NCBI RefSeq assembly: GCF_032854445.1
Contig: NC_088304.1
Span: 22,489,513-22,553,512 of the forward strand
DNA: 64,000 nucleotides
From: Liolophura sinensis
Taxonomy: Eukaryota
Direction: 5' to 3'
Shown here: positions 1 through 50,579 of the stretch, piece by piece
Layout of the letters: each line of letters starts with the position of its first letter
Numbering within the stretch: position 1 is the first letter of the stretch
Position numbers and translations under genes: made by a program
The notes under the pieces: model-generated
The model's input: only the letters and a program-made list of their open reading frames with translations
Told to the model about the DNA's origin: nothing
Database searches by the model: none

Positions 1-3000
1 TGTGGACTGCTAACTTAATAGACTCAAGTGAGGACACGACAGAGCGCTGTGGACTGCTAACTTAATAGACTGGAGTGGGGACACGACAGAGCGCTGTGGA
101 CTGCTAACTTAATAGACTGGAGTGGGGACACGACAGAGCGCTGTGGACTGCTAACTTAATAGACTGAAGTGAGGACACGACAGAGCGCTGTGGACTGCTA
201 ACTTAATAGACTGGAGTGAGGACACGACAGAGCGCTGTGGACTGCTAACTTAATAGACTGGAGTGGGGACACGACAGAGCGCTGTGGACTGCTAACTTAA
301 TAGACTGGAGTGGGGACACGACAGAGCGCTGTGGACTGCTAACTTAATAGACTGGAGTGAGGACACGACAGAGCGCTGTGGACTGCTAACTTAATAAACT
401 GGAGTGGGGACACGAAAGAGCAATGTTGACTGCTAACTTAATAGACTCAAGTGAGGACACGACAGAGCGCTGTGGACTGCTAACTTAATAGACTGGAGTG
501 AGGACACGACAGAGCGCTGTGGACTGCTAACTTAATAGACTGGAGTGAGGACACGACAGAGCGCTGTGGACTGCTAACTTAATAGACTCAAGTGAGGACA
601 CGACAGAGCGCTGTGGACTGCTAACTTAATAGACTCAAGTGAGGACACGACAGAGCGCTGTGGACTGCTAACTTAATAGACTGGAGTGGGGACACGACAG
701 AGCGCTGTGGACTGCTAACTTGATAAACTGGAGTGGGGACACGAAAGAGCAATGTGGACTGCTAACTTAATAGACTGGAGTGGGGACACGACAGAGCGCT
801 GTGGACTGCTAACTTAATAGACTCAAGTGAGGACACGACAGAGCGCTGTGGACTGCTAACTTAATAGACTGGAGTGGGGACACGAAAGAGCGCTGTGGAC
901 TGCTAACTTAATAGACTCAAGTGAGGACACGAAAGAGCGCTGCGGACTGCTAACTTAATATACTGAAGTGAAGGCATGACCGAAAGAGCGCTGTGGACTG
1001 CTAACTTAATAGACTGAAGTGAAGGAATGATAGAAAAAGCGCTGTGGACTGCTAACTTAATAGACTGGAGTGGGGACACGACAGAGCGCTGTGGACTGCT
1101 AACTTAATAGACTGGAGTGGGGACACGACAGAGCGCAGTGGACTGCTAACTTAATAGACTCAAGTGAGGACACGACAGAGCGCTGTGGACTGCTAACTTA
1201 ATAGACTCAAGTGAGGACACGACAGAGCGCTGTGGACTGCTAACTTAATAGACTGGAGTGGGGACACGACAGAGCGCTGTGGACTGCTAACTTAATAGAC
1301 TGGAGTGGGGACACGACAGAGCGCTGTGGACTGCTAACTTAATAGACTGAAGTGAGGACACGACAGAGCGCTGTGGACTGCTAACTTAATAGACTGGAGT
1401 GAGGACACGACAGAGCGCTGTGGACTGCTAACTTAATAGACTGGAGTGGGGACACGACAGAGCGCTGTGGACTGCTAACTTAATAGACTGGAGTGGGGAC
1501 ACGACAGAGCGCTGTGGACTGCTAACTTAATAGACTGGAGTGAGGACACGACAGAGCGCTGTGGACTGCTAACTTAATAAACTGGAGTGGGGACACGAAA
1601 GAGCAATGTTGACTGCTAACTTAATAGACTCAAGTGAGGACACGACAGAGCGCTGTGGACTGCTAACTTAATAGACTGGAGTGAGGACACGACAGAGCGC
1701 TGTGGACTGCTAAGTTAATAGACTGGAGTGAGGACACGACAGAGCGCTGTGGACTGCTAACTTAATAGACTGGAGTGGGGACACGACAGAGCGCTGTGGA
1801 CTGCTAACTTAATAGACTGGAGTGAGGACACGACAGAGCGCTGTGGACTGCTAACTTAATAGACTGGAGTGGGGACACGACAGAGCGCTGTGGACTGCTA
1901 ACTTAATAGACTGGAGTGGGGACACGACAGAGCGCTGTGGACTGCTAACTTGATAAACTGGAGTGGGGACACGAAAGAGCAATGTGGACTGCTAACTTAA
2001 TAGACTCAAGTGAGGACACGACAAAGCGCTGTGGACTGCTAACTTAATAGACTGGAGTGGGGACACGACAGAGCGCTGTGGACTGCTAACTTAATAGACT
2101 CAAGTGAGGACACGACAGAGCGCTGTGGACTGCTAACTTAATAGACTGGAGTGAGGACACGAAAGAGCGCTGTGGACTGCTAACTTAATAGACTGGAGTG
2201 AGGACACGACAGAGCGCTGTGGACTGCTAACTTAATAGACTGGAGTGGGGACACGACAGAGCGCTGTGGACTGCTAACTTAATAGACTGGAGTGGGGACA
2301 CGACAGAGCGCTGTGGACTGCTAACTTGATAAACTGGAGTGGGGACACGAAAGAGCAATGTGGACTGCTAACTTAATAGACTCAAGTGAGGACACGACAG
2401 AGCGCTGTGGACTGCTAACTTAATAAACTGGAGTGGGGACACGACAGAGCGCTGTGGACTGCTAACTTAATAGACTCAAGTGAGGACACGACAGAGCGCT
2501 GTGGACTGCTAACTTAATAGACTGGAGTGGGGACACGAAAGAGCGCTGTGGACTGCTAACTTAATAGACTGGAGTGGGGACACGAAAGAGCGCTGTGGAC
2601 TGCTAACTTAATAGACTGAAGTGAGGACACGAAAGAGCGCTGTGGACTGCTAACTTAATAGACTGAAGTGAAGGAATGATAGAAAAAGCGCTGTGGACTG
2701 CTAACTTAATAGACTGGAGTGGGGACACGACAGAGCGCTGTGGACTGCTAACTTAATAGACTGGAGTGGGGACACGACAGAGCGCTGTGGACTGCTAACT
2801 TAATAGACTGGAGTGGGGACACGACAGAGCGCTGTGGACTGCTAACTTAATAGACTGGAGTGAGGACACGACAGAGCGCTGTGGACTGCTAACTTAATAG
2901 ACTGGAGTGGGGACACGACAGAGCGCTGTGGACTGCTAACTTAATAGACTGGAGTGAGGACACGACAGAGCGCTGTGGACTGCTAACTTAATAGACTGGA

Positions 3001-4063
3001 GTGGGGACACGACAGAGCGCTGTGGACTGCTAACTTAATAGACTGGAGTGGGGACACGACAGAGCGCTGTGGACTGCTAACTTTAATAGACTGAAGTGAA
3101 GGCATGATCGAAAGATCGCTGTGGACTGCTAATTTTATAGACTGAAGTGAGGACACGAAAGAGCGCTGTGGACTGCTAACTTAATAGACTGGACTGAAGG
3201 CATGATCGAAAGAGCGCTGTGGACCACTAACTGTATGGACTGGAGTGAAGGCATCATCAAAGAGCGCTGTGGACTGCTAACTTAATAGACTCAAGTGAAG
3301 GCATGATCGAAAGAGCGCTGTGGACTGCTAATTTTATAGACTGAAGTGAGGACACGAAAGAGCGCTGTGGACTGCTAACTTAATAGACTGGACTGAAGGC
3401 ATGATCGAAAGAGCGCTGTGGACCACTAACTGTATGGACTGGAGTGAAGGCATCATCAAAGAGCGCTGTGGACTGCTAACTTAATAGACTCAAGTGAAGG
3501 CATGATCGAAAGAGCGCTGTGGACTGCTAACTTAATAGACTCAAGTGAGGACACGAAAGAGCGCTGTGAACCACTAACTTTATGGACTGGAGTGAAGGCA
3601 TGATCAAAAGAGCGCTGTGGACTGCTAACTTAATAGACTGAAGTGAAGGCATGATCGAAAGAGCGCTGTGGACTGCTAACTTTATTGACTGAAGTGAGGA
3701 CACGAAAGAGCGCTGTGGACTGCTAACTTAATAGACTGAAGTGAAGGCATGATCGAAAGAGCGCTGTGGACCACTAACTTTATGGACTGGAGTGAAGGCA
3801 TGATCAAAAGAGCGCTGTGGACTGCTAACTTAATAGACTGAAGTGAAGGCATGATCGAAAGAGCGCTGTGGACTGCTAACTTTATTGACTGAAGTGAGGA
3901 CACGAAAGAGCGCTGTGGACTGCTAACTTAATAGACTCAAGTGAAGGCATGATCGAAAGAGCTCTGTGGACCACTAACTTTATGGACTGGAGTGAAGGCA
4001 TGATCAAAAGAGCGCTGTGGACTGCTAACTTAATAGACTGAAGTGAAGGCATGATCGAAAGAG
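1..4063. repeat. Satellite array with a 47-bp unit of about 85 copies. A variant subfamily of about 51 bp (gaagtgaaggcatgatcgaaagagcgc) dominates from about 3060. Higher-order repeats of about 200 bp occur at about 3100-3300 versus 3290-3490, and also in the 400-2400 region.
   Basis: The unit tgtggactgctaacttaatagactggagtggggacacgacagagcgc recurs at positions 1 and 48. Variant units recur in fixed order. The array ends abruptly at 4063. Confidence 0.95.
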
Positions 4064-7720: not shown

Positions 7721-7819
7721 GTAAGTATTAAATTACTCTGACGTCTTAGATATTAATCTGCATTTCAACCAGTCGGCGGCAAGTGTTAACGCCATAAGGA
7801 AATAACTATGTACTGACAA

Positions 7820-8262
7820 CAAGACAATGTATATGGAAAGACGGAATTATGTATGGAAACAAGGGATTATATATGGAACAAGGATTTATTTATTTATTTT
7901 ATTTATGTGATTGTTGTTTTACGCCGAACTCAAGAATATTTCACTTATACGACGGCGGCCAGAACCCGGGGCGGAAACCCACGACCATCCGCAGGTTGCT
8001 GACAGACCTTCCCATGTACGGCCGGAGAGGAAGCCAGCATGAGCTGGACTTTAACTCACAGCGACCGCATTGGTGTGAGGCTTCTGGGTAATTACGCTGC
8101 GCTAGCGCGCTAATCAACTGAGCCACGGAGGCCCCCGGAACAAGGAATTATGTATGGAACAAGAAATTATGCAAGGGAACAAGGAATTATATATGGAACA
8201 AGGAATTGTGTATGGGAACAAGGAATTATGAATGGAAACAAGGAATTATGAAGGGTCAAGTA
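7820..8262. repeat. Minisatellite of 24 bp (ggaacaaggaattatgtatg)n, interrupted by a SINE insertion at 7876-8141.
   Basis: Repeat units lie on both sides of the SINE. A possible 10-bp target-site duplication (ggaacaagga) flanks the SINE. Confidence 0.7.
7876..8141 (-). mobile_element. tRNA-derived SINE, family A, full length, minus orientation.
   Basis: In minus sense it has a tRNA-like head (ggcctccgtggctcagttgattagcgcgctagcgcagcg...gagttaaagtccagctcatgctgg), a conserved body (ccgtacatgggaaggtctgtcagcaacctgcggatggtcgtgggtttcc) and a (aaat)n tail. Confidence 0.85.
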
Positions 8263-8437
8263 AATGCTGATATAAAAGGCTGATCGCTGGCAAATAGTCA
8301 CACCAAATCGGTGAAATATAGTCTTTTGTCAGTTTGCCTCTGTTAGGCTTGTATTCCAACTGTTCATCTAAAAGCTTAAACAGTATCACCTTCCATGTCC
8401 CTAGCATCATTGATCTTGATCAGAGCGGTCTATGTTC

Positions 8438-8554
8438 CAGATTGTTACCTGAGCCTCTTCCAGGTCTCTGAGGGTGTCTATTCCAGCTGTCCATGTGTTC
8501 GGGGTTTGGAGTGTAAGGGCTCAGGATTAGTTGAAGTCCCTTACGGGGAAATGG
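8438..8554 (+). CDS. Prokineticin/astakine-like gene, exon B1. It encodes the C-terminal half of domain 1: (N)CYLSLFQVSEGVYSSCPCVRGLECKGSGLVEVPYGEM(G).
   Basis: The acceptor is gttccag|at and the donor is aaatgg|gtaagtgg. The exon enters and leaves in phase 1. It contains the CPC...L.C motif of the colipase fold. At 117 nt it is the same length as paralogous exon B2. Confidence 0.55.
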
Positions 8555-8647
8555 GTAAGTGGATGACACTGACACAATTACGCCACTAGTACATAAAGCT
8601 ACACGTGCTAGAATGTTCTTATTTTGTATATGTAGGGATTCTGTGCC

Positions 8648-10051: not shown

Positions 10052-10320
10052 CAGCTAGGTCCTCCATGGCCCAGTGAATAGAGTGCTAGCTGAGCACAGT
10101 GACACAGTGCCTCTCTTGATGAATTTAGAGTCCAGCTTATACTGGCTTCCTCTCTGGTCATAAATGGGGAAAGTCTGCCAGTAACTTGCGAATGGTGGTG
10201 GGGTGCCTCCGGGCACATTCCGGTTTCTCCCCACCAGAATTCTGGCCACCATCGTATAAGTTAAATATTCTTGAGTACGGCGTGAAATAAATGAAATAAA
10301 TAAATGCAGTATGCTGAATG
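10052..10320 (+). mobile_element. SINE family A, diverged subfamily copy, with a tail ataaatgaaataaataaatg.
   Basis: It shares the body ggtctgccagtaacttgcgaatggtggtgggg...ccaccatcgtataagttaaatattcttgagtacggcgtgaaataaa. The region 10128-10395 including the flank is duplicated at 15086-15345. Confidence 0.7.
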
Positions 10321-10500
10321 AAGGAATGAATAATTATGGATCCCACTCCAGTCATGTGAAATGTTTTTCTTGCACCCAAAAAATACGCTGAAGCTTTTTT
10401 CACACCTCTTTTCATTGTAAAGCCTTAAGATTGACCTTGTGCACAACCCTTGTAATACGCAAGAGATGTAGACCTATGACGTCAACTTTTATGTTGCTAA

Positions 10501-11768: not shown

Positions 11769-11885
11769 GTTGTTTGGTAAGTTACGGATCCGGAGTTCCG
11801 TCATCGGTTGGGTTCATGTGTCCCTGCAAAGCCGGTCTTACCTGTACTCCGAGTGGCTACTCAGACATGCCCCTGGGACCCATGG
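11769..11885 (+). CDS. Prokineticin/astakine-like gene, exon B2. It encodes the C-terminal half of domain 2: (G)CLVSYGSGVPSSVGFMCPCKAGLTCTPSGYSDMPLGPM(G).
   Basis: The acceptor is cgcttgcag|gt and the donor is cccatgg|gtaagtggcc. The exon is 117 nt and contains the CPC motif. Its last 30 nt plus the donor are the seed of the downstream 78-bp satellite. Confidence 0.55.
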
Positions 11886-28850: not shown

Positions 28851-29239
28851 GTGTGTTTTGTTCATCTGTTATACTGCATGCTGCATATGATTGGCTGATT
28901 AGGTTACACTCGGCAGAATATATTTACATTTATCGATTTCTAATCGATCAGATGGTATAACATTTTGAAGGAGAACCTTAACCCTATTCATTTATTCAGC
29001 AATATTGCTTTGATGCACACATATGGCTTCAGGCCGAAATGTACTCGTATCCATTAACTATGGTATGGCGTATGGTGTATGTTATATACCAATGGGCTGC
29101 AAGTTGTGCCGCCATGATCTGCTGAACTTCATTCACCACACATGCATAAGTATTGTAATTGGTGAACTTGAAAGGTTTTAACGGAGACATGAAGAAATAA
29201 GGCGAACTAGTTGGCCAACATGTATCGTATTTCAAAGAT

Positions 29240-29507
29240 TTATTTATTTATTTATTTGATTGGTGTTTTACGCCGTACTCAAGAATATTTCACTTATACG
29301 ACGGCGGCCAGCATTATGGTGGGTGGAAACCGGGCAGAGCCCAGGGGAAATCCACGACCATCTGTAGGTTTCTGACAGGCCTTCCCACTTACGGCCGGAG
29401 AGGAAGCCAGCATGAGCTGGACTTGAACTCACAGCGACCGCATTGGTGAGAGACTCCTGGGTCATTGCGCTGCTCTAGCGCGCTAACCAACTGAGCCACG
29501 GAGGCAC
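29240..29507 (-). mobile_element. SINE family A, full length, minus orientation. It lies in an intron of the C4-like gene.
   Basis: Reverse complement of the family A consensus. The (taaa)n tail is at the 5' side and the head ...ctgagccacggaggcacc is at the 3' side. Confidence 0.9.
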
Positions 29508-30125: not shown

Positions 30126-30151
30126 CTCATTTGTGTTTCACATATTTTCAG

Positions 30152-30654
30152 GAGCTGCCGGAGGCGGATATTTCGGCCATGCCGGAGCCCCAGCCAACAT
30201 CATGTGTATGCCAAGGGTACCGACGTGGGGCCAGCACAACGATCAGTTTTTCGGAACAAAGGGGCATCAGTCTTACATGTACGGTGTAGAGTACAAGCTT
30301 CAAGCCCTGGACTTTCCCTTTGGACATGAGCACGCTGAAGCCCTGGAGAACCATAACGTGCCCTGCGCGGTATGCATGAGCAAGGTGCGAGGAAGCCAGC
30401 TGATGGTGCCAGGACGGATGGACTGTGTCCCTGGCTGGCACCTCGAGTACTCAGGCTTCCTGATGGCAGGGGATTACCAGACGACGGGGGCCTCGGAGTA
30501 CATCTGCATAGACAAGGACCCGGAGGCCGATCCGGCCGGCTACCGCGGCGAAAGCTCACATAATCTCGTCCCTGTGGAAGCCCAGTGCGGTTCTCTCCCC
30601 TGTCCCCATTACGTAAGTGGTCGAGAAATAACCTGCTCTGTGTGCACCAAGTAG
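30152..30654 (+). CDS. C4 (collagen IV NC1)-like gene, terminal coding exon of about 167 aa: (G)AAGGGYFGHAGAPANIMCMPRV...PCAVCMSKVRGSQLMVPGRMDCVPGWHLEYSGFLMAGDY...CSVCTK*.
   Basis: The acceptor is catattttcag|ga and the split Gly codon is completed across the intron. The motifs CAVC-x15-CVPGW-x3-YSGF match collagen IV NC1 / 'short-chain collagen C4' (CAVC...CPSGW..LW.GYSF). Codon usage is GC-rich and non-repetitive. The stop TAG is at 30652-30654. Confidence 0.7.
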
Positions 30655-31265
30655 TGTAAATGGGTTATATATCAGTGCTGTCTGCTCTATGTGCACCGGT
30701 TGAATAGGTTATGCGCCAGTGTGTCCTGTGTGCATATAGGTTATATGCCCCTACGTCAGTGATATTTGTTCTATGCATCACATAACGTGAATCAAAAGTT
30801 TTACGTCAGTGTCATCTCTTTTGCGTTTGCACCCTGTAACGTGAATACGTTCTGCGGCACCGTTATCTGTTCTGTGTGTGCACCAAGCAGCGTGAATAGG
30901 TTATACGACGGTGTTATCTGCTCTGTCTGCACCAACTAGCATGAATAGGTTGTACGTCAGTGTTTTCTGCTCTGTGTGCGCCAGATTGCATGAACAGGGT
31001 ATTCGTCATTGTTATTTTCTAAGTGCGCATACCAAGATAGCGTGAACAGGCTATACGTAAGTGTTATTTTCTATGTGTGCACACTAAGTAGCGTGAATAG
31101 GCTATACATCAGTGTTATTATCTATATGTGCGCACCAAGGTAGCGTGAATACGTTATACGTCAGTGTTATCTATTGTCTGTCTGCACCAAGTACCTTGAA
31201 TAGTCTATACGTCAGTGTCATTTGCTCTGTCTGATCCAAGTAGCGTGAGCAGGATCTGTATCGTC
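30620..31265. repeat. Tandem array of about 11 units of 57-60 bp, seeded from the last 12 codons and stop of the C4 exon. Units look like (ct)gtgtgcaccaagtagcgtgaataggttatacgtcagtgttatctgct.
   Basis: The first unit overlaps the coding end ...ctgtgtgcaccaagTAGtgtaaatgg. Each later unit keeps tgcaccaag-tag. The array forms the start of the 3'UTR. Confidence 0.85.
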
Positions 31266-36800: not shown

Positions 36801-37039
36801 AATTATTGATAATGATAAATGAATGGTCCAAGCTGTCCGTGTACATGTAGTACTCCAGCGAGGTCCCGTTTGTCTTCAGATACAAGTGTCCGGGGTAGAT
36901 CAATATCTTGTAAATATAACAGCAGAAATGTAACAAAAATATATATGCTATGTTTCACGTAAAGTTTGTTATGTATAAAAAATGCACGTTCAGCATTTCG
37001 AATTTGTACCTGAAGGTAACTGTGGCCTGATATGAACAT

Positions 37040-37745
37040 TAGTAGTGTGAGTCATGAAAACCTGGCAGAACTAGCTGTTCATGTGAACACTAGCAGCGTG
37101 CGTCAGGAAAACCTGGCAGGACTAGCTGTTCACGTGCACACTAGCAGTGTGAGTCATGAAAACCTGGCAGGACTAGCTGTTCACGTGAACACTAGCAGTG
37201 TGAGTCACGAAAACCTGGCAGAACTAGCTGTTGACATGAACACTAGCAGTGTGAGTCATGAAAACCTGGCAGGACTAGCTGTTCACGTGAACACTAACAG
37301 TGTGAGTCATGAAAACCTGGCAGGACTAGCTGTTCACGTGAACACTAGCACTGTGCGTAATGAAAACCTGGCAGGACTAGCTGTTCATGTGAACACTAGC
37401 AGTGTGCGTCATGAAAACCTGGCAGGACTAGCTGTTGACGTGAACACTAGCAGTGTGAGTCATGAAAACCTGGTAGGACTAGCTGTTGACGTGAACACTA
37501 GCAGTGTGAGTCATGAAAACCTGGCAGGATTAGCTGTTGACGTGAACACTAGCAGTGTGAGTCATGAAAACCTGGCAGGACTAGCTGTTCATGTAAACAC
37601 TAACAGTGTGAGTCAAGAAAACCTGGCAAGACTAGCTGTTCATGTGAACACTAACAGTGTGAGTCAAGAAAACCTGGCAAGACTAGCTGTTCATGTGAAC
37701 ACTAGCAGTGTGCGTCAAGAAAACCTGCCAGTACCAGCTGTTCAC
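37040..37745. repeat. Satellite with a 51-bp unit in about 14 copies (cactagcagtgtgagtcatgaaaacctggcaggactagctgttcacgtgaa). The + strand reads as a perfect 17-aa repeat (VHVNTSSVSHENLAGLA), which gives the 261-aa ORF 37032-37817.
   Basis: The period is 51 bp, equal to 17 codons. There is no splice or start context beyond the repeat itself. Confidence 0.85.
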
Positions 37746-38134
37746 ATACCTTCGTTACTATTAAACAATCAAAGGTGCGGAGCGTTTGCTGTGGTGGGAG
37801 TAGGGGATGAGTGGTGAGTGAGAGGTACTATATCTGATCAAGACGGTCCAAGCCTGTTTTCGTGCACAGATTTTGACCCGGGGATCATGATTGCTGTGTA
37901 CAGGTAGACCTTATATGTATGTACATCAGGAAGCCCTCGGGACATACATATATTTAGATCCAATTACAGATACGGCATTGCATTTCTCGAGGACTCCATG
38001 ATGGACAGCCTTACAAGATAAATGATATTCTTATATGAACGTTATTATTATGTAGGTGACATAAATGAATCGTTCAGCTGTATACATGGTACATGGTAAA
38101 CTATGACGTCGAACGCGACATTCACTAGTTATCC

Positions 38135-40615: not shown

Positions 40616-43600
40616 GGGTTCAACAGCTTTCCTCTCATAAGTGTTGTACACATACGTTTTCAAAACAATATCTCCAAACATGACTGTCTGTGATGTCTCT
40701 AATACTATTATCGAATATTTTTCATCGAGCAAATATAAGTTTATTCGTCCATTATACTAACTTTATTTGCCTGAAATATTTCAGCATGTTGTATATTCGC
40801 AGTATCACCTCGCGGCTGCCGTCAGATATGCATTTCGAATGGGTTTACAGGCATCTTGTGCAACTTTATGTGTTCAATGTAACAGTTGTATTTAAACATT
40901 TCGATTATTTAGAAATTTAAACCAAATCATATTATAGGTCACAAATAAAATATTGTTTTTTTCATAGGTTACTGATTATCTTATATATATATTTTATATC
41001 CGCTAGATGGCCGCCTATGATAAATAAAAGGAATCGGTGATCTTAACATTAAATCGGAAGCATTCTATATTCAATGCGTGGATTAAAATTTAAATATTAT
41101 TCCCTGAAATCAGGAAAAATGACTTTTGGCATCATGTTTTTGAACATACACTCTGAAAGGTCTTTCTTTCGTTTTCTGGGGTTAGCTCTTTCCAGTGTCG
41201 TCAATAACGGTTAGAATACATGGAGATTGAACGAGTACGAAAGGGTCCTATTGCTTGCATACCATGCATCAAAATCTGAAACGTCACTTCAGGGAGAAGT
41301 TTTCTCAAACAAGCAAACAACGTATGTCATTTACCATACACACTTAATATTCATCGAGGGGCTTATGTTCGCTCGGGGTTTTGTCCTCCAGGGTGTTTGT
41401 CCGCGTGGTGTTTGTCCACCTGCGCTTTTGTCCGTTCCCCATTGGTGGAAGGCACCTGGGTCATTGCATTGCATTGAGACAATGACCGTTAGGCTATGGA
41501 GGAAGACACTAACAGGATTTACAACAGACATGCATTACCCCTCTACTGATCAGAAGGGACACAGCTTCAACTGACGGACGATCATGTCGTCTAAGGACAG
41601 GAGTGGAGTATAATGCATGTGCTCAGTAAAGTCTGCCAGTCAGCTATCTGTTTTGGGTAAACTCTGTTGGGCAGGACGATTGCTCTGTACTAAGAACTCG
41701 TATACTTTCACTTATACGACGGCGGCCAGCATTATGGTTGGAGGAGACCGGACAGAACCCGGGAAATCTACTGTCAATTAAGTTCCTCTAGAATCTCGGT
41801 AATCCCTAATAACGGTGACAATGATGGTTAAAATCACTTTCTAAATAGCATCTGCCAATCTAACAGGTCTCCAAAAAGCAACCTGGAAGCGGACGTCAAC
41901 GAAGAACTACGGGGCAAACGTTACATGAGATGTACATCTTTCCGAATCGTGCTTATTATGGTCATATGAAAGTCAGCTGAAGGTCAACGCGCTGTCCAGC
42001 CGCCGTCAATGGTGAAGGCTGAGCCGGTAATCTGGTCAGCTGAGCGCGTGCACAGGAAGTGGATTAAATCTGCGATCTGGACAAAAAACAAACAGAAAAC
42101 TTTGTAAGAAACAGTATTAAAACACGTATTAAATCACCCAGTATAAAGTACGCATTCTAGATTCTGTCTGACAGGAGCTGACATTGCTACTATTTATGCA
42201 TTTACACGAACAGTTAGAATAAAACCCTGACTGAGGATAAACTGACAAGAGGTCGTATTTCACCGGTTACGTGTGGCCATTTGCCAGCTATTACACTATC
42301 ACTGCCCTGGTTTTACTTTTTTATGCTGTAAGTCTTCAATTATATCATTTACTAATACAACCTTAGTATATACATGGCCACGTTGTGGCTACAATATTGG
42401 CCAACTATCGTTAAACCATAACCAGTCACTCATTCTTGTGGAGGCGTGGAAGCCAAACAGAGTCCTTTGAGGGCGTGTATGAGGTGGTGAAAACCGATTT
42501 TCCGACGTAGTTCCAGTGTTAAAGTGTACTGCGGCGTAAGGCTTAATTCTCTGTGGGTATGTAAGCCCCCTCCTCCCCTAGAGCATCGTTATTGTTAAGC
42601 ACGATACTTAGTTCATCAAATACCTGTCAAATTATTTTTTTTGAGAGAAATGTTTTTAGTGTTGTCTGTTCACACACACACACTGGCTACACGATACAAA
42701 ATGATCCCGTTTCCACAAAGTGTTAAGTTCAAGCAAACTCATGTTTTTTTCGGGAAGTGTGAGAATTTCTTTCTTCGGGAGACAAACATTGCCGAACACA
42801 AAACACTGTACTGCTCCGATTTACCGAAATTACGTTCAGTAATACAGATTTACTCTCTCCGAAGTCAGAAGAAAATTCATTTCATCCACTACGCTACAGC
42901 ACAATCATTTTCACACCATGTATGTTGATCCTGAAAACGTAACAATGGCATCGTTTAAAATCTAATACTTTGCAGCCGATAGTCAAAGATCAGTTGGACC
43001 GACCCTTTAATACCACTAGTCAGTGTGCTCGGTACTACGTCATCGTTAGAGGAGCTGACCCACATTCGCGCGCGCTAACACCTTATAATAGAGGTTATTT
43101 TCAGGGTGGTTCTAATTACCTTCGGAGAGGGTTGCATCTGTTTTGAGGCAAGAAAATTGCAAATATAACGGAATGTGCATGATTCGAAGTTGTATTTTCC
43201 CTACAACATTTCTCATCACACCGGCTATGAAAGTTAAACGGGATTATACAGTACGACGGTAAATGACAGTTGCTAGTGTTAACAAACTTGAAAGGTGAGA
43301 AATCAATAACACAACCATTAATGGCGATGTTTCCCTTCCAATAAATCGATTTGTTCATTTGATTTCGCTTTAAAGCTGTACGCAGGAGTGTTTCACGTGC
43401 AAGGCAACATTCGAGTTTATCTTCTGAGAAAACGAGACATAGACGGGAAAAAAACAGCCATACTTTGCTAGGAATCTGCGAGGCCTCCACCGAACAAGCG
43501 AGCGTTGGATATGAACTCGAGGCCTCATCTGTTAAGGGTCAATCGCTTGCCACGAGAGCGGCGCTTTCGGTGAATAAGCCGGCAATAAGCAATGTTCGCT

Positions 43601-44369
43601 TGACTGCCAGTGATCATATTCTCCTCAATATTAAGTAGATGTTAATACAGTCTTATTTTCAAGGCCCCAGGTCCCGGGATCACGGGACGATCTTAGACTT
43701 AAGTCCAAATTTTAATCATTCAATTTGGTATGTTACGTTTCGTTACTTTAGCAGAAATTTTGTTGTACAATAACTCACCCAGAATTTACGTTGCCAAACA
43801 ATATTTTGATTTTGTTACATCAGGTATAAGAAATTTAAAGTCATCTGAAATTTTTATTTAAGCCTAGGATCGCATCAAAATGCGACAAGGATGATGAAAC
43901 TGCCTTAAACTTAAGTTAGACAACATTTTAATTGTAGCTGTGTTGAAGCTTTGACTTAAGACGTTTGATAAATGCGAGCCCCGCTGACAGTAATGGCGTC
44001 AATAACGCGCCTTAACGTGCTAATATACATATATTCCTCATATTTTGGAAGCACTACATTGTTTTTGGACGAAAACATATTTAGCGGCTGACTTGTGTTT
44101 CTCTTCGAAAAACTAGTAAATTTATCTAAACTTTTTTTATGATGCTTTTTGAAATTCCACGAAGACTTACTTGAGAAACGTCCACAAATTCTTTGGTGGG
44201 TTGAAATGTTTCCAGCAAGCGTAGCTACAAAGACAGTACAGATAGAGACACATTTCATTGGGTGTAGGGGAGTGAAACTCGGATTCCAATGAAAGATGAA
44301 TAAAGTGGAACCTAAAAGCGAGGTTTATGGCTGTACGGTTTTAAGGGAAATAAAGAAAGTTGAAAGTTG

Positions 44370-44639
44370 TTTATTTATTTATTTATTTGATTGGTGTTTT
44401 ACGCGGTACTCAAGAATATTTCACTTATACGACGGCAGCCAGTATTATGGAGGGTGAAAACCGGGTAGAGCCCGGGGAAACCCACAACCATCCGTAGGTT
44501 GATGGCAGACCATCTCACGTACGGCCGGAGAGGTAGCCAGCATGAGCTGGACTTGAACTCATAGCGACCGCATTGGTGAGAGACTTCTGAGCCATTACGT
44601 TGCGCTAGAGCGCTAACCAACTGAGCCACGGAGGCCCCC
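44370..44639 (-). mobile_element. SINE family A, full length, minus orientation.
   Basis: The tail tttatttatttatttatttgattggtgttttacgcggtactcaagaatatttcacttatacgacggcagccag is at the left. The head ...ctaaccaactgagccacggaggcccc is at the right. Confidence 0.9.
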
Positions 44640-45289
44640 GAAAGTTGTTTAAAAGGCTTTCAAATAAATTTTCATATTTGAGATATATTTTATATATTTT
44701 CATCAGCCCTCTATTTTGGGGATTTTACTTTCCTTTCAACAATGTTGAATAAGTGTGCCTGAATGCAAAGAATGTCTCAGTATTGACGAAAACAATGAGT
44801 ATATTTAATTATAATCAAGAAGAAAAAGACAATGAAAAATCCCACAATGCATCAGCAGGTACCTTAGCGTCCGGAAATGAGACGTTGTCCCGTTCACTAA
44901 CTGTCCTTATCTGACCCTGAGCAACTACAACACAAATCTCTGCAGTTATATTCCAACGTTATTAGAATTCATCTCATATACACAATGTCTAATAAATAAT
45001 AAAGGTGCCTGTACATGTACACAATATCACAAAATGAACATTTTAAATTCTATCGTTTACGCTAATAACAGGCCTCAATTCATGAATCAGTTATTAGATC
45101 AATTTGAATGGCGTTTTTCCAAACGTTCATCAGTATTTCAATTATAACGACGGCGTTCGGATTTATGGATAAATGAAACCAGAGGCAGTCGGGTGAAAAT
45201 GCTCACAGGTGAAACTGAAACCGAACCGGAGTCAGCTGGGTTCGAACCCGCGATAATTCATTTGTAGCTGCCAGCCGTTTCCAGTCCTA

Positions 45290-46100
45290 CTGCCTAAGAC
45301 AGAGGAATGGACGTGAGGATTGTATGTAGACACCATCAGGCAGAACAATGGATGTGCGGGTTGTACATGCAGATACAATGAGACAGAAGCATGGTTGTGT
45401 GGATTGTACACGCAGACACAAGGAGAGAAGAATGGACGTGGGGGCAGTACATCCAGACACAATGAGACAGAACAATGGATGTGCGGGTTGTACATGCAGA
45501 CACAATGAGACAGAACAATGTATGTGGGGATTGTACATGCAGACACAATGAGACAGAACAATGAATGTTGGGATTGTATATGTGGACACAATGAGACAGA
45601 AGAATGGATGTTGGGATTGTATATGTAGACACAACGATACAGATCGATGGATGTGCGGATTGTATATGTAGACACAATGAGACAGAACAATGAATGAGGC
45701 ATTGTACATGCAGATGCAATGGGACAGAACAATGGATGTGGGGATTATACATGCATACACAACGGAACAGAAGTTTGTCATGGGGGCAAAGAGGCAGAAC
45801 AATGGATGTGGGGATTGTACATGCATACACAATGAGACAGAAGCATGGTTGTGGGGATTGTACATGCAGACACAATGAGACAGAAGCATGGTTGTGGGGA
45901 TTGTAAATGTACGTGCAGAGGCAATGCGACAGAACAATTGATGTGGGAATTGCACATGCAGATACACAATGAGACAGAACATTGGATGTGCGGATTCAAC
46001 ATGCTGGCGCAATGACAGAGAACAATGGAGATGCGGATTGTACATGTAGACACAATGAGGCAGACGAATGGATGTGGGAATTGTACATGCAGACAGTGTT
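45290..46100. repeat. Satellite with a 43-bp unit in about 19 copies (gacacaatgagacagaacaatggatgtgcgggttgtacatgca).
   Basis: Direct repetition is visible. The overlapping ORFs 45232-46131 on both strands are artifacts. Confidence 0.9.
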
Positions 46101-46239
46101 CTGTAAACATCAGTGAAATAACCTCGTACATGTAGAGGCTGATCTAACCTGACACAGCTAAACCTAGTGAATTACCAAGGACACATTACTAGTATGGAGG
46201 AAACCGAAAAGAAAAAAAAATACATGGAAACTCTTGGAT

Positions 46240-46375
46240 CTTGCCAGTTAAAACTCCCTCGGGAAGGTCTGTCAAGAATCTGCGAATGGTTGCTGGTTTC
46301 CCCCGGGCTTTGCCCGGTTTCCTCCCACCATAATGCTGGCCACCGTCGTATAAGTGAAATATTCTTGAGTACGGT
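46240..46375 (+). mobile_element. SINE family A 3' part.
   Basis: gaaggtctgtcaagaatctgcgaatggttgctggtttcccccgggctttgcccggtttcctcccaccataatgctggccaccgtcgtataagtgaaatattcttgagtacgg. Confidence 0.8.
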
Positions 46376-46771
46376 ACACCAGTATAAATGCAAATAGTCA
46401 TGCGTGCCTCGTGATTTGTTCGTTAGGCTTGGAGCTCTTCAATGGATGAAGGTGATATTGTGCAGCCTTCAATATATCTCCATGTTCACATTGCTCTCCC
46501 GAGTTTACTGCCACATAGCACAACCAAATCATTGGCACATGGGGATTTCCCGGATTTCCATTTTCTCACTGGTTAACAAATCACATATCTAAGTAAAGGC
46601 TCACAGTATAAAGCTACCGTGAGACACGATAAAGGTTATGATATTGCTGATTTTCTATTTTGAAGTGTTTTAACTTTTAACCAAAAATTCAGAAAAATTA
46701 AAACTTATAGGCAATGGGCTTTTATTTCCATAGAGTCTTCCTTTGTTTTAACATTGTCGTGTAAACCCTAC

Positions 46772-46875
46772 CTTGGTCAGCCCCACGACACCGTGTTTAG
46801 CAGCACAATAAGCGGATTTCTGGGGAGAGGCTACTAGCCCGTGCACAGACGCTACGTTGATTATCCTGCCCCACC
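46772..46875 (-). CDS. SDR (3-hydroxybutyrate-dehydrogenase-like) gene, exon 5: (G)[34 protein letters not shown]. It contains the catalytic Y-x-x-x-K.
   Basis: On the minus strand the acceptor is cattttctctctag|gg (entered in phase 1 from exon 4) and the donor is accaag|gtaggg. It matches bacterial Bdh[36 protein letters not shown] nearly residue for residue. Confidence 0.65.
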
Positions 46876-47486
46876 CTAGAGAGAAAATGTCAACATTTCA
46901 CGACGTATATGAATCATTATAAATTATGTAGGCCTATTTCCGTAATAAAGAATTTGCTATATATTGCAAGGCATTCATTTCTGTTCGTCGACAGAAACAA
47001 TCTTGGTTTGCATAATCAACGGATGATATAAGAAAATTTATACTTGGACTTATATGTTGGGATACCCTATTTCTTTTAATTTTTGGGACACCTGGTCTAC
47101 TCATTTTAGCCAATATATATGGAATTGTAGCAGGAATATTTTCCTCACATGGTTAGATCATCCAATGAACAACATACTCAAGTCTTTAATTTCCAAAAGG
47201 TTGGTAAAGAAATGTAATATTCTACTTTCAACACTAATAATATCTGTCCCAAATTTTAGAAGAATTAGGGTATTCAAAATATTTGGAGTTGTCAAAAAGG
47301 TGCAAACGATCATATACTAATGTTATAAGTGCTAATGTTGCGTTGTTCATAAAAAAAACATTGTGGCACAAGACCCGTATCTATTTACATACTGCGGCTG
47401 TAATAAACGAAAGAGAAAGCAAACAGAATGGAAAAGCACTAATATGAGAGATGGAAAAATGAAAACGTATTAGACATTCGGATTAC

Positions 47487-47609
47487 CTTTGGTTTTCATT
47501 CCAGGTAGGAATGATCGGATGAGGTGAAACGGAGCGGAAAGCATGACGGCGACAAGTAAATTCCACTTCTCTACAGGAAAGTCCTCTACAGGACAAACAT
47601 GCTGTAGTC
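47487..47609 (-). CDS. SDR gene, exon 4: (G)LQHVCPVEDFPVEKWNLLVAVMLSAPFHLIRSFLPGMKTK(G).
   Basis: On the minus strand the acceptor is ttgtcttctttcag|ga and the donor is aaccaaag|gtaatccg. It is in phase 1 at both ends. It aligns to BdhA IQHTALIEDFPTEKWDAILALNLSAVFHGTAAALPHMKKQG. Confidence 0.65.
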
Positions 47610-47984
47610 CTGAAAGAAGACAAACACAAAGCTGAGCAGCTGTTCAGTTCGACTGAACAATTCTTTGTTTCGCGAGAGCGGAAGTCAAACTACTATTATG
47701 TTACCGCACTTTATTCTTGGAAAACCTCCAGCTCAGTTCATGCCACACTCCTTACAGCGCATGCGTCGCTTTCTACCTTTCGCTTTGCATATATGTGACA
47801 CACGTAGGCTATTTAGGCTTAGCCTCATCACTTGTGTCCTCCCGCGGAACTATTTAATCATCATTCATCAAAAAACTTGTTTTAAGGTTTTAGTTAGAAT
47901 CATGTTGCACATACTCTACATAAAGAAAATGAATGTGTATAAAGTATTGTGAGAGACAAAGATTGACAAGGATTGTTTGTGTTT

Positions 47985-49235
47985 TCTGACATCATCACCC
48001 CACACATAAGCCGTAAGTGTAAAGGCTTACCAACGTTATTCACAACACGTCTACACCGTGTACGTCTTAATATTTCACCACCCCATACAGAAGCCGTAAG
48101 TGTAAAGGCTTACCAGCATTATTCACCAACACGTCTACACCGTGCTCATCTTAATATTTCACCACCCCATACAGAATCCGTAAGTGTAAAGGTTTACCAA
48201 CGTTATTCATAACACCTTTACACCGTGTACGTCTTAATATTTCACCACCCCACACAGAATCCGTAAGTGTAAAGGCTTACCAACGTTATTCACAACACGT
48301 CTACACCGTGTACGTATTAATATTTCACCACCCCATACAGAAGTCGTAAGTGTAAAGGCTTACCAACGTTATTCACAACAGGTTTACACCGTGTGCATCT
48401 TAATATTTCACCACCCCATACAGAATCCGTAAGTGTAAAGGCTTACCAACGTTATTCACAACACGTCTACACCGTGCTCGTCTTAATATTTCACCACCCC
48501 ATACAGAATCCGTAAGTGTAAAGGCTTACCAACGTTATTCACAACACCTTTACACCGTGCGCATCTTAATATTTCACCACCCCACACAGAATCCGTAAGT
48601 GTAAAGGCTTACCAACGTTATTCACAACACGTCTACACCGTGCTCATCTTAATATTTCACCACCCCACACAGAAGCTGTAAGTGTAAAGGCTTACCAGCA
48701 TTATTCACCAACACGTCTACACCGTGCTCATCTTAATATTTCCACCACCCCACACAGAAGCTGTAAGTGTAAAGGCTTACCAACGTTATTCACAACACGT
48801 CTACACCGTGCTCATCTTAATATTTCACCACCCCACACAGAATCCGTAAGTGTAAAGGCTTACCAACGTTATTCACAACACGTCTACACCGTGCTCATCT
48901 TAATATTTCACCACCCCACACAGAAGCTGTAAGTGTAAAGGCTTACCAGCATTATTCACCAACACGTCTACACCGTGCTCATCTTAATATTTCACCACCC
49001 CACACAGAAGCTGTAAGTGTAAAGGCTTACCAACGTTATTCACAACACGTCTACACCGTGCTCATCTTAATATTTCCACCACCCCACACAGAAGCTGTAA
49101 GTGTAAAGGCTTACCAACGTTATTCACAACACGTTTACATCGTGTGCATCTTCATGTTTCCTCACCCCATACAGAAGCCGTCAGTATAAAGGCTTACCAG
49201 CATTATTCACCAACACGTCTACACCGTTCGGAAAT
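47985..49235. repeat. Satellite with an 80-bp unit in about 15 copies. There are two unit variants (accagcattattcaccaacac / accaacgttattcacaacac). In minus sense each unit equals the last 33 nt of SDR exon 3 (..EHGVDVLVNNAG) plus the first 47 nt of the intron, including the GTAAGC donor.
   Basis: The minus-strand reading of a unit is ...gatgagcacggtgtagacgtgttggtgaataatgctg|gtaagcctttacacttacggcttctgtatggggtggtgaaatattaa. The genuine exon end at 49198 is the first unit. ORFs 47973-48212 and 49144-49356 are artifacts. Confidence 0.9.
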
Positions 49236-49322
49236 TCTCTTGCCACTTCGTTACACATGCGGGTCACCTCAGATTCCAGACTCAGATCTGCATCAACGAA
49301 ATGGCATCTTACGCCATGTTTC
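49198..49322 (-). CDS. SDR gene, exon 3: (R)KHGVRCHFVDADLSLESEVTRMCNEVAREFPNGVDVLVNNA(G).
   Basis: On the minus strand the acceptor is atttcttccag|ga (phase 2, joining exon 2's trailing AG) and the donor is aatgctg|gtaagcc. It aligns to BdhA HGVKVLYDGADLSKGEAVRGLVDNAVRQMGRIDILVNNAG. Confidence 0.7.
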
Positions 49323-50120
49323 CTGGAAGAAATATAATTTTCATCACATCGATTAATATATTTACGTATTACTTTGATAGATTTTTATTCCCTACTGCAG
49401 AATCAGCTTGACAAACTGTTACATCAAAAACTTCGCATCTTATCTATTCCCTAACAAACCTCCACACTTTTGGGTTCCTAGGGTAACATAGGTTCTAAAG
49501 TTGTGAGCCTATGTTACCCTAGGAATATACAAATGTGTTTACTTTAACTCTTCTTGTCTGTGCATGGAGCTCGTACTAGAAATGACGATTTATTTGCTTC
49601 TGTCAAGTCTTACGCTATCTAACTGCTTCACCCGTAAAACAACAGTAAAATAGGATTTAGCAATAGATTCCACACTTTGGATCTGAATTGCGCAAGCTAT
49701 TAATTCGTCTTGGATGTTGGCGTAAACATACAAATCTGTGATATCTTGTGAGAAAAGAGCGTGAAGCTCGCTCTCTGTGTTCTCCTGGATGTTGATCCGG
49801 CACCTGGCGACAAGCCACAAACTCAGAATTAGCATGTTGGTGATTTTTTTTTAACTGAGCTCTGCCCCACCGTTTGTCTTCCACCTATATGCCTGGCGAT
49901 AGACCACAGACCCAGAAAGTAGAATGTTAGTGGTTTTGGGTGGGCTCTGCCCAATCAGTGGTATTCCGCCAATATGGCGTGCAGGCCGTCACGCCTGAGA
50001 ACGTTGGTTCATAACTCACCAAAGGTCGGTGGTTCTGTCGTACCTGCCAAAATATTCTTAAGTAAAACATCCAGTGAAATAAACATAACTGTTAAATGAC
50101 ATGCATACATACACCTACCT

Positions 50121-50277
50121 GTTGATGTTGTCCTGAATTGCTTGTATCTGATGTCGGTCTCCTAGACCGTTCACGATGACGTCACAGCCTCGTTCAGCTA
50201 ACGTCTCCGCCACTCCGAGTCCGATGCCGGATGTAGACCCGGTTACAAGGGCGGTCTTACCCGAGAGGTCACGACCT
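50121..50277 (-). CDS. SDR gene, exon 2 (Rossmann-fold NAD-binding start): (x)RDLSGKTALVTGSTSGIGLGVAETLAERGCDVIVNGLGDRHQIQAIQDNIN(R).
   Basis: On the minus strand the acceptor is gtaatactcctcag|gt and the donor is caacag|gtaggtgt. The TG-x3-GIG glycine-rich motif appears in the specific form GSTSGIGLG(I/V)A, which is typical of (R)-3-hydroxybutyrate dehydrogenases. The upstream Met exon was not found. Confidence 0.75.
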
Positions 50278-50579
50278 GAGGAGTATTACACCGTAAAACT
50301 ATAGTGGCGAGGACTGCATAGGGCCTGGCGCTGTGTGATGTATTTTATTTATTTATTTATTTGACTGGTATTTTATTGTATATTTCCTTTAACCGATTGC
50401 GGCCAAAATTATACTGGTAGAGTTGTCCACGTTCGAGTTAAGAGCAGTATTCTGCATGAGCTGGGCTGTATTAACATAACATGTATCCATGACCATGGGG
50501 TGTATTCAAAAATAGAACTAATCTTATGTATTTCGTCGGGCATACGTCGAGATATCAGCTGCGTTGATCTTCTCTGCGC

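What the first reader, a model, noticed from the sequence alone, without database searches (positions are those of the whole stretch)
47985..49322. Second, independent exon-junction-derived satellite: 80-bp array made of the VLVNNAG exon end plus donor of the SDR gene
On the minus strand, exon 3 of the SDR gene ends ...gaatttccgaacggtgtagacgtgttggtgaataatgctg|gtaagcc (E F P N G V D V L V N N A G). The adjacent 1.25-kb array consists of about 15 units that each read ...gagcacggtgtagacgtgttggtgaataatgctggtaagcctttacac... That is the last 33 nt of the exon plus the donor plus 47 nt of intron. Some units have a 1-nt deletion (gtgttgtgaataacgttggtaag). This has exactly the architecture of the astakine-gene satellite: exon tail plus donor plus about 48 nt of intron, amplified in the intron immediately 3' of the source exon. 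Two unrelated genes 35 kb apart show the same phenomenon, and the C4 3'-end array is a third case. Together they suggest a recurrent local mechanism, such as replication slippage or unequal exchange nucleated at exon ends, or a splice-site or RNA-associated process, rather than chance.
Basis: seen in the sequence. Interest (0 to 1): 0.82.

Follow-up and report, generated by a model that had tools for sequence, protein, structure and literature searches.

The report
Intron minisatellite repeating an exon-intron junction
An 83-84-bp stretch spanning the end of one exon and the start of the next intron of a mollusc dehydrogenase gene has been copied 14 more times inside that intron; this kind of junction-repeating minisatellite is already known from several human genes and is probably a tolerated by-product of local duplication.

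Summary
Tandem Repeats Finder gives an 83-bp period, 14.8 copies and 92% matches at 47992-49227. On the minus strand, unit 0 is the authentic junction: the last 30 nt of the VDVLVNNAG exon (49322-49198), the donor CTG|GTAAGC and 54 nt of intron. Fourteen more copies fill 76% of the 1588-nt intron.

The exon is genuine. It belongs to a bacterial-type 3-hydroxybutyrate dehydrogenase SDR gene. The Lottia gigantea orthologue has an intron at the same NNAG|G position, 452 nt long and with no array. The array therefore came from the exon, not the reverse.

Three copies match the real junction exactly over 41 nt. Eleven carry a 1-nt deletion and two substitutions. Use of any downstream donor would add a stop five codons later.

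This architecture is already described for human F7, LMNB2, PDGFA, CBS and IFI6 (PMC1557585), so this is a new member of a known kind.

Three of 17 arrays gives a crude, post hoc P of about 0.001-0.03. That hints at exon-end seeding but does not show it. Function is most likely none.

The parts
49198..49322 (-). Exon 3 of the SDR (3-hydroxybutyrate-dehydrogenase-like) gene. It encodes (R)KHGVRCHFVDADLSLESEVTRMCNEVAREFPNGVDVLVNNA(G). The acceptor is ttccag|G and the donor is CTG|GTAAGC.
   Evidence: Translation. tblastn and HMM matches to Lottia and bacterial BDH. Pfam adh_short E=6e-43 for the joined exons.
49144..49227 (-). Unit 0 of the array, which is the authentic junction. It holds the last 30 nt of exon 3 (49227-49198) and the first 54 nt of intron 3 (49197-49144).
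   Evidence: Unit slicing and alignment. The TRF array ends at 49227.
47992..49143 (-). Fourteen further head-to-tail copies of 83-85 bp, the last one diverging in its tail. Each carries a pseudo-donor: TTG|GTAAGC in 10 units, CTG|GTAAGC in 3 and TTG|GTAAAC in 1.
48936..48976 (-). Unit 3 pseudo-junction, identical to the authentic junction over 30 exonic and 11 intronic nt.
   Evidence: it also gives a spurious GVDVLVNNAG tblastn hit.
48685..48725 (-). Unit 6 pseudo-junction, identical to the authentic junction over 41 nt. Units 3 and 6 show the same pattern of differences from the consensus across the whole aligned unit, three units apart.
48103..48143 (-). Unit 13 pseudo-junction, identical to the authentic junction over 41 nt, but set on a distal-type intron part.
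47610..49197 (-). Intron 3, phase 1, 1588 nt. The array occupies 76% of it. Without the 14 extra units it would be about 436 nt. The acceptor is tcttctttcag|GA.
   Evidence: The Lottia orthologous intron is 452 nt with no array.
47487..47609 (-). Exon 4 of the SDR gene, encoding (G)LQHVCPVEDFPVEKWNLLVAVMLSAPFHLIRSFLPGMKTK(G).
50119..50275 (-). Exon 2 of the SDR gene, carrying the TGSTSGIG cofactor-binding motif.
11857..14831 (+). Parallel case 1. A 78-bp array of about 38 copies whose first unit spans the end of a cysteine-rich (astakine/colipase-like) exon, ...GYSDMPLGPMG|GTAAGTGG, with the exon ending at 11885.
   Evidence: The paralogous exon at 8380-8555 has the same ...GEMG|GTAAGTGG end but no array.
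30626..31248 (+). Parallel case 2. An array of about 12 units of about 50 bp whose first unit spans the last ~27 nt of the short-chain-collagen-C4-like coding sequence (including stop TAG at 30652-30654) plus 3'UTR.

Best explanation
This is a boundary-spanning intronic minisatellite.

Origin (inferred). A local tandem duplication, by replication slippage or unequal sister-chromatid or homologue exchange, copied an 84-bp segment. That segment ran from 30 nt before the exon 3 donor to 54 nt into intron 3 of a 3-hydroxybutyrate-dehydrogenase-like SDR gene. Further unequal exchange and gene conversion expanded and partly homogenised it to 15 units.

Why it persists (inferred). Only the most upstream copy adjoins the rest of exon 3, so splicing from that first donor gives the normal mRNA. 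All later copies are simply removed with the intron. The array is therefore tolerated, whereas duplications inside exons or across acceptors would break the gene.

What is shown: the anatomy, the direction (exon to array), the derived state relative to Lottia, and the mosaic unit structure.

What is only inferred, by analogy with human F7 IVS7: that only the first donor is used and that the array has no function.

Predicted side effects:
- The intron holds 14 strong decoy donors, and use of any of them gives a stop after five extra codons.
- Unequal exchange within the exon-derived 30 nt would place the deletion-type tail into the exon, where it reads ...GVDVL-stop. The array is thus a mutational hazard.
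- The exact copies produce spurious exon hits in homology-based annotation.
For: - Array statistics and uniqueness within the window.
- Unit 0 is the real junction, and the units align over their full length.
- The exon is ancestral coding sequence. GVDVLVNNAG aligns to GVDILVNNAG or GVDILINNAG of bacterial and Lottia BDH, with Pfam adh_short at 6e-43.
- The Lottia orthologue has the intron at the same NNAG|G phase-1 position, 452 nt long and without an array. The window intron without the 14 extra units would be about 436 nt.
- Units are mosaic. The exon-type 30-mer sits on proximal-type intron parts in units 3 and 6 and on a distal-type part in unit 13. Distal units share characters with unit 0. 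There is a weak 251-bp higher-order period. This is the signature of unequal exchange and conversion.
- Every downstream donor would add KPLY-stop.
- The units show no unusual DNA secondary structure (z about 0) and there is no Rfam match.
- Human genes F7 (37 bp x5-9), LMNB2 (100 bp x10-15, covering most of the intron), PDGFA (81 bp x16-18), CBS and IFI6 have the same design. In F7 only the most upstream donor is used, through 5'-to-3' scanning (PMC1557585).
Against: - No transcript data were available, so donor choice is untested. In human CBS and IFI6 the two proximal pseudo-sites are used as well.
- Three exact 41-nt copies of the junction, against 10 differences in the 54 intron-derived nt of unit 0, could reflect conversion from the exon or selection rather than drift. 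The sample is too small to tell.
- Three arrays in one 64-kb window start in coding-exon tails, which is more than a uniform-placement null predicts. Purely random seeding may therefore be incomplete as an account.
- The gene may not be intact. No exon matching profile positions 173-218 (the NAICPG...TP segment) was found. Tolerance could then partly reflect relaxed constraint.
Confidence: 0.8

Rival explanations
1. Exon 3' ends are preferred seeding sites for minisatellites in this genome. A mutational process tied to exon ends would nucleate the founding duplications. Candidates are polymerase pausing, R-loops or fork stalling at splice donors and coding-sequence ends, or nucleosome-edge effects. 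This is the first reader's idea, and it concerns origin bias, so it is compatible with the best explanation.
For: Three of 17 arrays in the window start 26-31 nt before the end of a coding exon and extend downstream. A crude null expects 0.2-0.6 such arrays, giving P(>=3) of 0.001-0.03.
Against: - The window was picked because of these arrays, so the P value is post hoc, and the exon count is only bracketed.
- The other 14 arrays carry no more donor-like motifs than shuffled sequence.
- One of the three cases involves a stop codon and 3'UTR, not a splice site.
- In the Lottia orthologue, neither array reiterates a junction.
- About a quarter of the window is minisatellite, so some exon overlaps are expected genome-wide.
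- Selection alone explains why only downstream-extending overlaps survive.
Confidence: 0.2
2. The array is functional. Reiterated strong donors and G-runs would recruit U1 snRNP or splicing factors, or provide alternative poison donors. This would tune SDR expression by unproductive splicing and nonsense-mediated decay, or protect the long intron.
For: There are 14 pseudo-donors matching 5-7 of 9 consensus positions, and three are identical to the real site over 41 nt. All would give a premature stop. In human CBS and IFI6 the proximal pseudo-sites are used (PMC1557585).
Against: - The array is absent from the orthologous Lottia intron.
- Units drift freely, including in the donor (GTAAAC in unit 12) and the exon-derived part.
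- There is no conserved structure or known RNA family.
- In F7 the pseudo-sites are silent.
- The host gene may itself be incomplete.
Confidence: 0.1
3. Reverse direction: the array belongs to a pre-existing dispersed or transposon-borne satellite family, and the exon end captured a monomer.
For: Bivalve genomes carry many transposon-borne satellite-like arrays (for example PMC7492417, listed). Absence elsewhere in the genome could not be checked.
Against: - The exonic 30 nt encode the GVDVLVNNAG motif shared with bacterial and Lottia BDH at the same alignment position, with a conserved intron right after it.
- The unit occurs nowhere else in the 64-kb window.
- It gave no hit in the metagenome contig collection (a weak test).
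- The left flank of the array is the exon itself, not a transposon terminus.
Confidence: 0.02
4. Assembly artefact: a spurious expansion or mis-join of reads at the junction.
For: Tandem arrays are prone to length errors in assemblies. Copy number cannot be verified here.
Against: The units carry structured, position-specific variation, with two subfamilies and proximal and distal variants. Three independent arrays of different sequence show the same design.
Confidence: 0.03

Closest known systems
Human F7 intron 7 VNTR (37 bp x5-9), as studied by Borensztajn et al. 2006 (PMC1557585)
   Same: The first monomer spans the exon-intron boundary, so the authentic donor is followed by identical pseudo-donors in the intron. 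The array lies directly 3' of the source exon.
   Different: The F7 unit is 37 bp with only 4 exonic nt, against 83-84 bp with 30 exonic nt here. F7 pseudo-sites are all identical, whereas here 3 of 14 are. For F7, exclusive use of the first donor and copy-number polymorphism are shown by experiment. Here neither could be tested.
Human LMNB2 intronic repeat (100 bp x10-15; de Stanchina et al. 1997) and PDGFA intron 4 repeat (81 bp x16-18; Bonthron et al. 1999), as summarised in PMC1557585
   Same: Unit length (81-100 bp) and copy number (10-18) are similar. [quoted passage not shown] In these human genes only the authentic donor is reported to be used.
   Different: The host lineage and gene differ (a mollusc SDR/BDH-like gene). 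I know these papers only through the citing text and did not compare sequences.
Human CBS IVS13 31-bp VNTR and IFI6 (6-16) intron 2 minisatellite
   Same: These are boundary-spanning minisatellites that supply multiple donors.
   Different: [quoted passage not shown] Here any such use would give a premature stop, and actual usage is unknown.
Intron gain or sliding by tandem duplication of a segment containing AGGT (for example PMC3265369, PMC4974935; listed)
   Same: The same mutational event is involved: a short tandem duplication that multiplies splice-site sequence inside a gene.
   Different: Those duplications lie inside an exon and create a new intron. Here an existing donor junction is duplicated many times and no new intron or exon arises.

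Membership tests
Boundary-spanning (junction-reiterating) intronic minisatellite (F7 / LMNB2 / PDGFA / CBS / IFI6 type) | Head-to-tail tandem array of a minisatellite-sized unit (about 10-100 bp) | tested here: met
   TRF period 83, 14.8 copies, 92% matches; 15 anchors spaced 83-85 nt apart.
Boundary-spanning (junction-reiterating) intronic minisatellite (F7 / LMNB2 / PDGFA / CBS / IFI6 type) | The first monomer spans a genuine exon-intron boundary | tested here: met
   Unit 0 is 30 nt of exon 3 plus 54 nt of intron. The exon and the intron position are confirmed by homology with Lottia and bacterial BDH.
Boundary-spanning (junction-reiterating) intronic minisatellite (F7 / LMNB2 / PDGFA / CBS / IFI6 type) | [quoted passage not shown] | tested here: met
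   There are 14 pseudo-donors. CTG|GTAAGC occurs 3 times and is identical to the authentic site; TTG|GTAAGC occurs 10 times and TTG|GTAAAC once.
Boundary-spanning (junction-reiterating) intronic minisatellite (F7 / LMNB2 / PDGFA / CBS / IFI6 type) | Only the most upstream donor, or the first few, is used in splicing | not testable with these tools
   No transcript data for this species. It is shown only that any downstream donor would add KPLY-stop.
Boundary-spanning (junction-reiterating) intronic minisatellite (F7 / LMNB2 / PDGFA / CBS / IFI6 type) | Copy-number polymorphism (VNTR behaviour) | not testable with these tools
   Only one haplotype is available. A look-up of an array-encoded ORF in public assemblies found nothing.
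Dispersed or transposon-borne satellite family (for example Helentron-carried arrays of oysters) | The same monomer family is present at many unlinked loci, with arrays flanked by transposon sequence | tested here: inconclusive
   No other copy in the 64-kb window and none in the metagenome contigs. The rest of the genome was not available. One flank is the exon itself, which argues against this.
Tandem exon duplication (mutually exclusive or alternative exons) | Each copy is a complete exon with its own acceptor, an open frame and a donor | tested here: not met
   Units hold only the last 30 of 125 exon nt. Each is bounded by stops (for example *DEHGVDVLVNNAGKPLHLQLLCGVVKY*). The TTACAG acceptor-like motif is present in only 5 units.

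The most novel reading that the evidence does not exclude
In this mollusc genome, minisatellites may be seeded preferentially in the last ~30 nt of coding exons, roughly ten-fold over random placement, by a process coupled to transcription, splicing or replication. Exon tails would then be a systematic source of intronic and 3'UTR arrays. The three cases in this window would be typical rather than lucky.
Probability: 0.15. Interest if true: 0.6.

Novelty: new member of a known kind. Interest (0 to 1): 0.3.

Why it matters
Taken alone, this is a further example, apparently the first noted in a mollusc, of a design known from human F7, LMNB2, PDGFA, CBS and IFI6.

It has three practical uses:
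- It is a natural test of how the spliceosome picks one of many near-identical donors. Three decoys match the real site over 41 nt.
- It is a predictable source of null alleles, because exchange with deletion-type units puts a stop into the exon.
- It is a trap for homology-based annotation, because three false GVDVLVNNAG hits appear.

The larger question is whether exon tails are preferred seeding points. That can be answered cheaply with a genome-wide count, and it would be of real interest only if the excess holds.

Tried and rejected
- A scan of public metagenome contigs for the unit found 0 hits. This says little, because mollusc DNA is rare there.
- An exact look-up of a 79-aa ORF running through the array in public assemblies found nothing on record. 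Copy-number variation and presence in other samples could therefore not be assessed.
- A protein search for closer SDR orthologues found nothing above 62% identity. The best named animal hit was Lottia at 57%, so only one distant orthologous intron could be compared.
- An Rfam search of 47000-50500 gave no match.
- Single-strand DNA folding of both unit types and of the astakine-like unit gave z-scores of 0.0-0.6. A hairpin-driven slippage explanation has no support.
- I tested whether the 56-bp array in intron 8 of the Lottia orthologue also reiterates its junction. The exon tail is no more similar to the unit than shuffled sequence (245 of 500 shuffles reach the score), so this was rejected.
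- I tested whether array units in the window are generally rich in donor-like 9-mers. They are not; every P is 0.19 or higher.
- I searched for degenerate extensions of the other 14 arrays into their flanks. Short extensions appear at two arrays (16991 and 38915) and an outlying copy near a third (8137); for the rest the TRF ends are sharp. I did not relate any of them to exons.
- Pfam support for the 'astakine' label is weak. Only a sub-threshold Colipase_C hit appeared for the paralogue, so I call the gene astakine/colipase-like.
- I looked for the missing SDR exons (profile positions 173-218) by regular expression, tblastn and a profile HMM over all six frames. None was found.
- I ran no further search on the flanks of the other arrays, because the expected gain was small.

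Full report
**1. What is there**

Tandem Repeats Finder reports an array at 47992-49227 with period 83, 14.8 copies, 92% matches and score 1998. A marginally better 251-bp period (93%) is also reported. The 34-nt core of the unit occurs 10 times with 3 or fewer mismatches, against 0 expected from shuffles. All 10 lie inside this array, so the unit is not dispersed within the window.

Read on the minus strand, the motif GGTAA[G/A]CC occurs 15 times at spacings of 83-85 nt. The first occurrence is at 49198. That first occurrence is the end of an open exon segment that reads KHGVRCHFVDADLSLESEVTRMCNEVAREFPNGVDVLVNNA(G).

Similarity between unit 0 and the later units begins at ACGGTG, 30 nt before the exon end. 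It runs 54 nt into the intron. The monomer is therefore 30 nt of exon, then the donor, then intron. That totals 84 nt, or 83 nt in the deletion variant.

**2. The exon and the gene are real**

The joined exons match Pfam adh_short at E = 6e-43. They match thousands of 3-hydroxybutyrate dehydrogenases, at up to 62% identity to bacterial proteins and 57% to Lottia gigantea LOTGIDRAFT_209094.

I located these exons on the minus strand:
- 50275-50119, carrying the TGSTSGIG motif
- 49322-49198, carrying the NNAG motif
- 47609-47487
- 46875-46772, carrying the YxxxK motif
- 44224-44171
- about 42079-41987, the C-terminus

In the Lottia genomic locus (L001) the orthologous exon also ends ...GVDILINNAG|gtatgg. 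The next exon starts GLQYV after a 452-nt intron that contains no tandem repeat. The intron position and phase are therefore ancestral and the array is derived.

The window intron is 1588 nt (49197-47610), with acceptor tcttctttcag|GA. The array fills 76% of it. Without the 14 extra units it would be about 436 nt, close to the Lottia value.

The 30 exonic nt of the unit encode GVDVLVNNAG, a motif shared with bacterial enzymes. The exon therefore donated sequence to the array, and did not capture a satellite monomer.

**3. Internal structure of the array**

The alignment of the 15 units shows two forms of the exon-derived part.
- Units 3, 6 and 13 are identical to the real junction over 30 exonic and 11 intronic nt.
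- The other 11 share a 1-nt deletion and two substitutions, reading GTGTTGTGAATAACGTTG.

The exon-type part sits on two different intron-part backgrounds. It is proximal-type in units 3 and 6. Those two units have the same differences from the consensus and lie three units apart. It is distal-type in unit 13.

Distal units (8-13) share characters with unit 0 that proximal units lack (TGTATGG, the ...CA tail). Unit 0 itself differs from the consensus at about 10 of 54 intronic positions.

This mosaic, the edge divergence and the weak three-unit periodicity are what unequal exchange and gene conversion produce in minisatellites. Nothing in the unit predicts an unusual DNA structure (z about 0). 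No Rfam family matches.

**4. Consequences for splicing (inferred)**

The authentic donor CTG|GTAAGC matches 7 of 9 consensus positions. The pseudo-donors match 5-7.

The intron begins GT AAG CCT TTA TAC TGA in frame. Use of any downstream donor would therefore add KPLY and a stop.

The deletion-type tail read in the exon frame gives ...GVDVL-stop. Unequal exchange inside the exon-derived 30 nt would thus create a null allele.

The three exact copies already produce spurious GVDVLVNNAG hits in tblastn, which is a warning for annotation.

**5. Comparison with what is known**

A literature search led to Borensztajn et al. 2006 (PMC1557585). [quoted passage not shown] The examples it gives are:
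- F7 IVS7: 37 bp x5-9, with 4 exonic nt
- IFI6 intron 2: 25 pseudo-sites
- CBS IVS13: 15-20 repeats
- PDGFA intron 4: 81 bp x16-18

In F7 the pseudo-sites are functional but silent, because a 5'-to-3' scanning process selects the most upstream site. In CBS and IFI6 the two proximal pseudo-sites are also used.

The present array meets every structural criterion of this class. The behavioural criteria, donor usage and copy-number polymorphism, could not be tested. I found no report of such arrays in molluscs. I therefore file it as a new member of a known kind.

**6. The 'recurrent mechanism' claim**

Both parallel cases are real.

On the plus strand a cysteine-rich exon ends ...GYSDMPLGPMG|GTAAGTGG at 11885. 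It is followed by about 38 units of 78 bp that repeat its last ~29-31 nt, the donor and ~47 nt of intron. The tandem paralogue ends ...GEMG|GTAAGTGG at about 8555 and has no array, so that array is also derived.

'C4' is a short-chain-collagen-C4-like coding sequence that ends ...REITCSVCTK-stop at 30654. Its last ~27 nt plus ~24 nt of 3'UTR are repeated about 12 times up to 31248. The first four copies are degenerate and TRF misses them, but they are significant against shuffles.

So 3 of 17 arrays start 26-31 nt before the end of a coding exon. I used a crude null: founding duplications placed uniformly, 20-45 exon 3' ends in the window, and a minimum overlap of 5-10 nt. It expects 0.2-0.6 such arrays, with P(>=3) of 0.001-0.03.

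This is suggestive but weak, for five reasons.
- The window was flagged because of these arrays.
- The exon count is only bracketed.
- About a quarter of the window is minisatellite, so many such overlaps must exist genome-wide by chance.
- The remaining arrays have no excess of donor-like motifs.
- The third case has no splice site, which argues against a splice-specific process.

Selection explains the direction of the overlaps. Only duplications that extend downstream from an exon end leave the mRNA intact. Selection does not explain an excess in number. In the Lottia orthologue neither array reiterates a junction.

I give about 0.15-0.2 to a real seeding bias.

**7. Caveats**

No transcript, population or sister-species data could be reached. 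The species itself is not in the protein database. The closest named relatives of a neighbouring gene are bivalves and cephalopods at 50% identity or less.

The SDR gene may be incomplete. No exon matching profile positions 173-218 (the NAICPG...TP segment) was found on either strand. The interval where it should lie (46772-44224) holds a 43-bp array and two inverted copies of a SINE-like element.

**8. Verdict**

- The derivation from the exon junction is supported.
- The array is most likely a neutral, tolerated by-product of local tandem duplication and unequal exchange.
- It belongs to a class described in human genes since the 1990s.
- The clustering of three exon-tail arrays in one window is the only unusual element, and it needs a genome-wide count before any weight is put on it.

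Noticed in passing
window 30626-31248 (+): The ~50-bp array after the short-chain-collagen-C4-like gene begins inside the coding sequence tail. The last ~27 nt, including the stop, plus ~24 nt of 3'UTR are reiterated. TRF calls the array only from 30840, but four degenerate copies upstream are significant against shuffles. A Logan contig (L002, SRR26493809) aligns at about 80% DNA identity over 30137-31078 (coding sequence and array region) and matches the array repeatedly at 72-81%. That array is therefore shared with a relative or paralogue.
   Followed up: partly
window 11857-14831 (+), compare 8380-8560 (+): A 78-bp array of about 38 copies reiterates the end of an astakine/colipase-like exon plus its donor. 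The tandem paralogous exon has the same ...MG|GTAAGTGG end and no array. Pfam support for the family label is only a sub-threshold Colipase_C hit.
   Followed up: partly
window 44224-46772 (-): The SDR/BDH-like gene lacks any detectable exon for the NAICPG...TP segment (profile positions 173-218; exons 6-7 of the Lottia orthologue). The gene may be a recent pseudogene, carry a deletion, or be mis-assembled here.
   Followed up: partly
window 44296-44660 (+) and 46172-46440 (-), and at least 10 other places (for example 7798-8150, 10058-10420, 15055-15380, 18427-18735, 20290-20580, 22620-22840, 29200-29475): A SINE-like element recurs throughout the window; its chance ORF reads ...FTPYSRIFHLYDGGQHYGGRKPG... 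An inverted pair of copies brackets the 43-bp array (45297-46095) in the interval where the missing SDR exons should be.
   Followed up: no
whole window: About 25% of the window (about 15.9 kb) consists of 17 minisatellite arrays with units of 15-110 bp. One is a 47-bp array of at least 85 copies cut off by the window start (1-4046).
   Followed up: partly
window 41987-50275 (-): The animal SDR gene is most similar to bacterial 3-hydroxybutyrate dehydrogenases (up to 62% identity), more than to its Lottia orthologue (57%). It nevertheless has introns at positions shared with Lottia. It is a bacterial-type BdhA lineage in molluscs, of old but unexamined origin.
   Followed up: no
L001 5842-6393 (Lottia gigantea KB201304.1): Intron 8 of the Lottia orthologue holds a 56-bp AT-rich array that starts about 30 nt after the donor. 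Its units are not significantly similar to the exon tail, so it is not a junction-derived array.
   Followed up: yes
window 37020-37814 (+): The 51-bp array (14 copies) keeps one reading frame open for 265 codons, as 17-residue repeats VSHENLAGLAVHVNTSS. Whether this is a coding repeat or chance was not examined.
   Followed up: no
window 48945-48974, 48694-48723, 48112-48141 (-): The three exact junction copies give tblastn and HMM hits (GVDVLVNNAG) that could be mis-annotated as extra exons of the SDR gene.
   Followed up: yes
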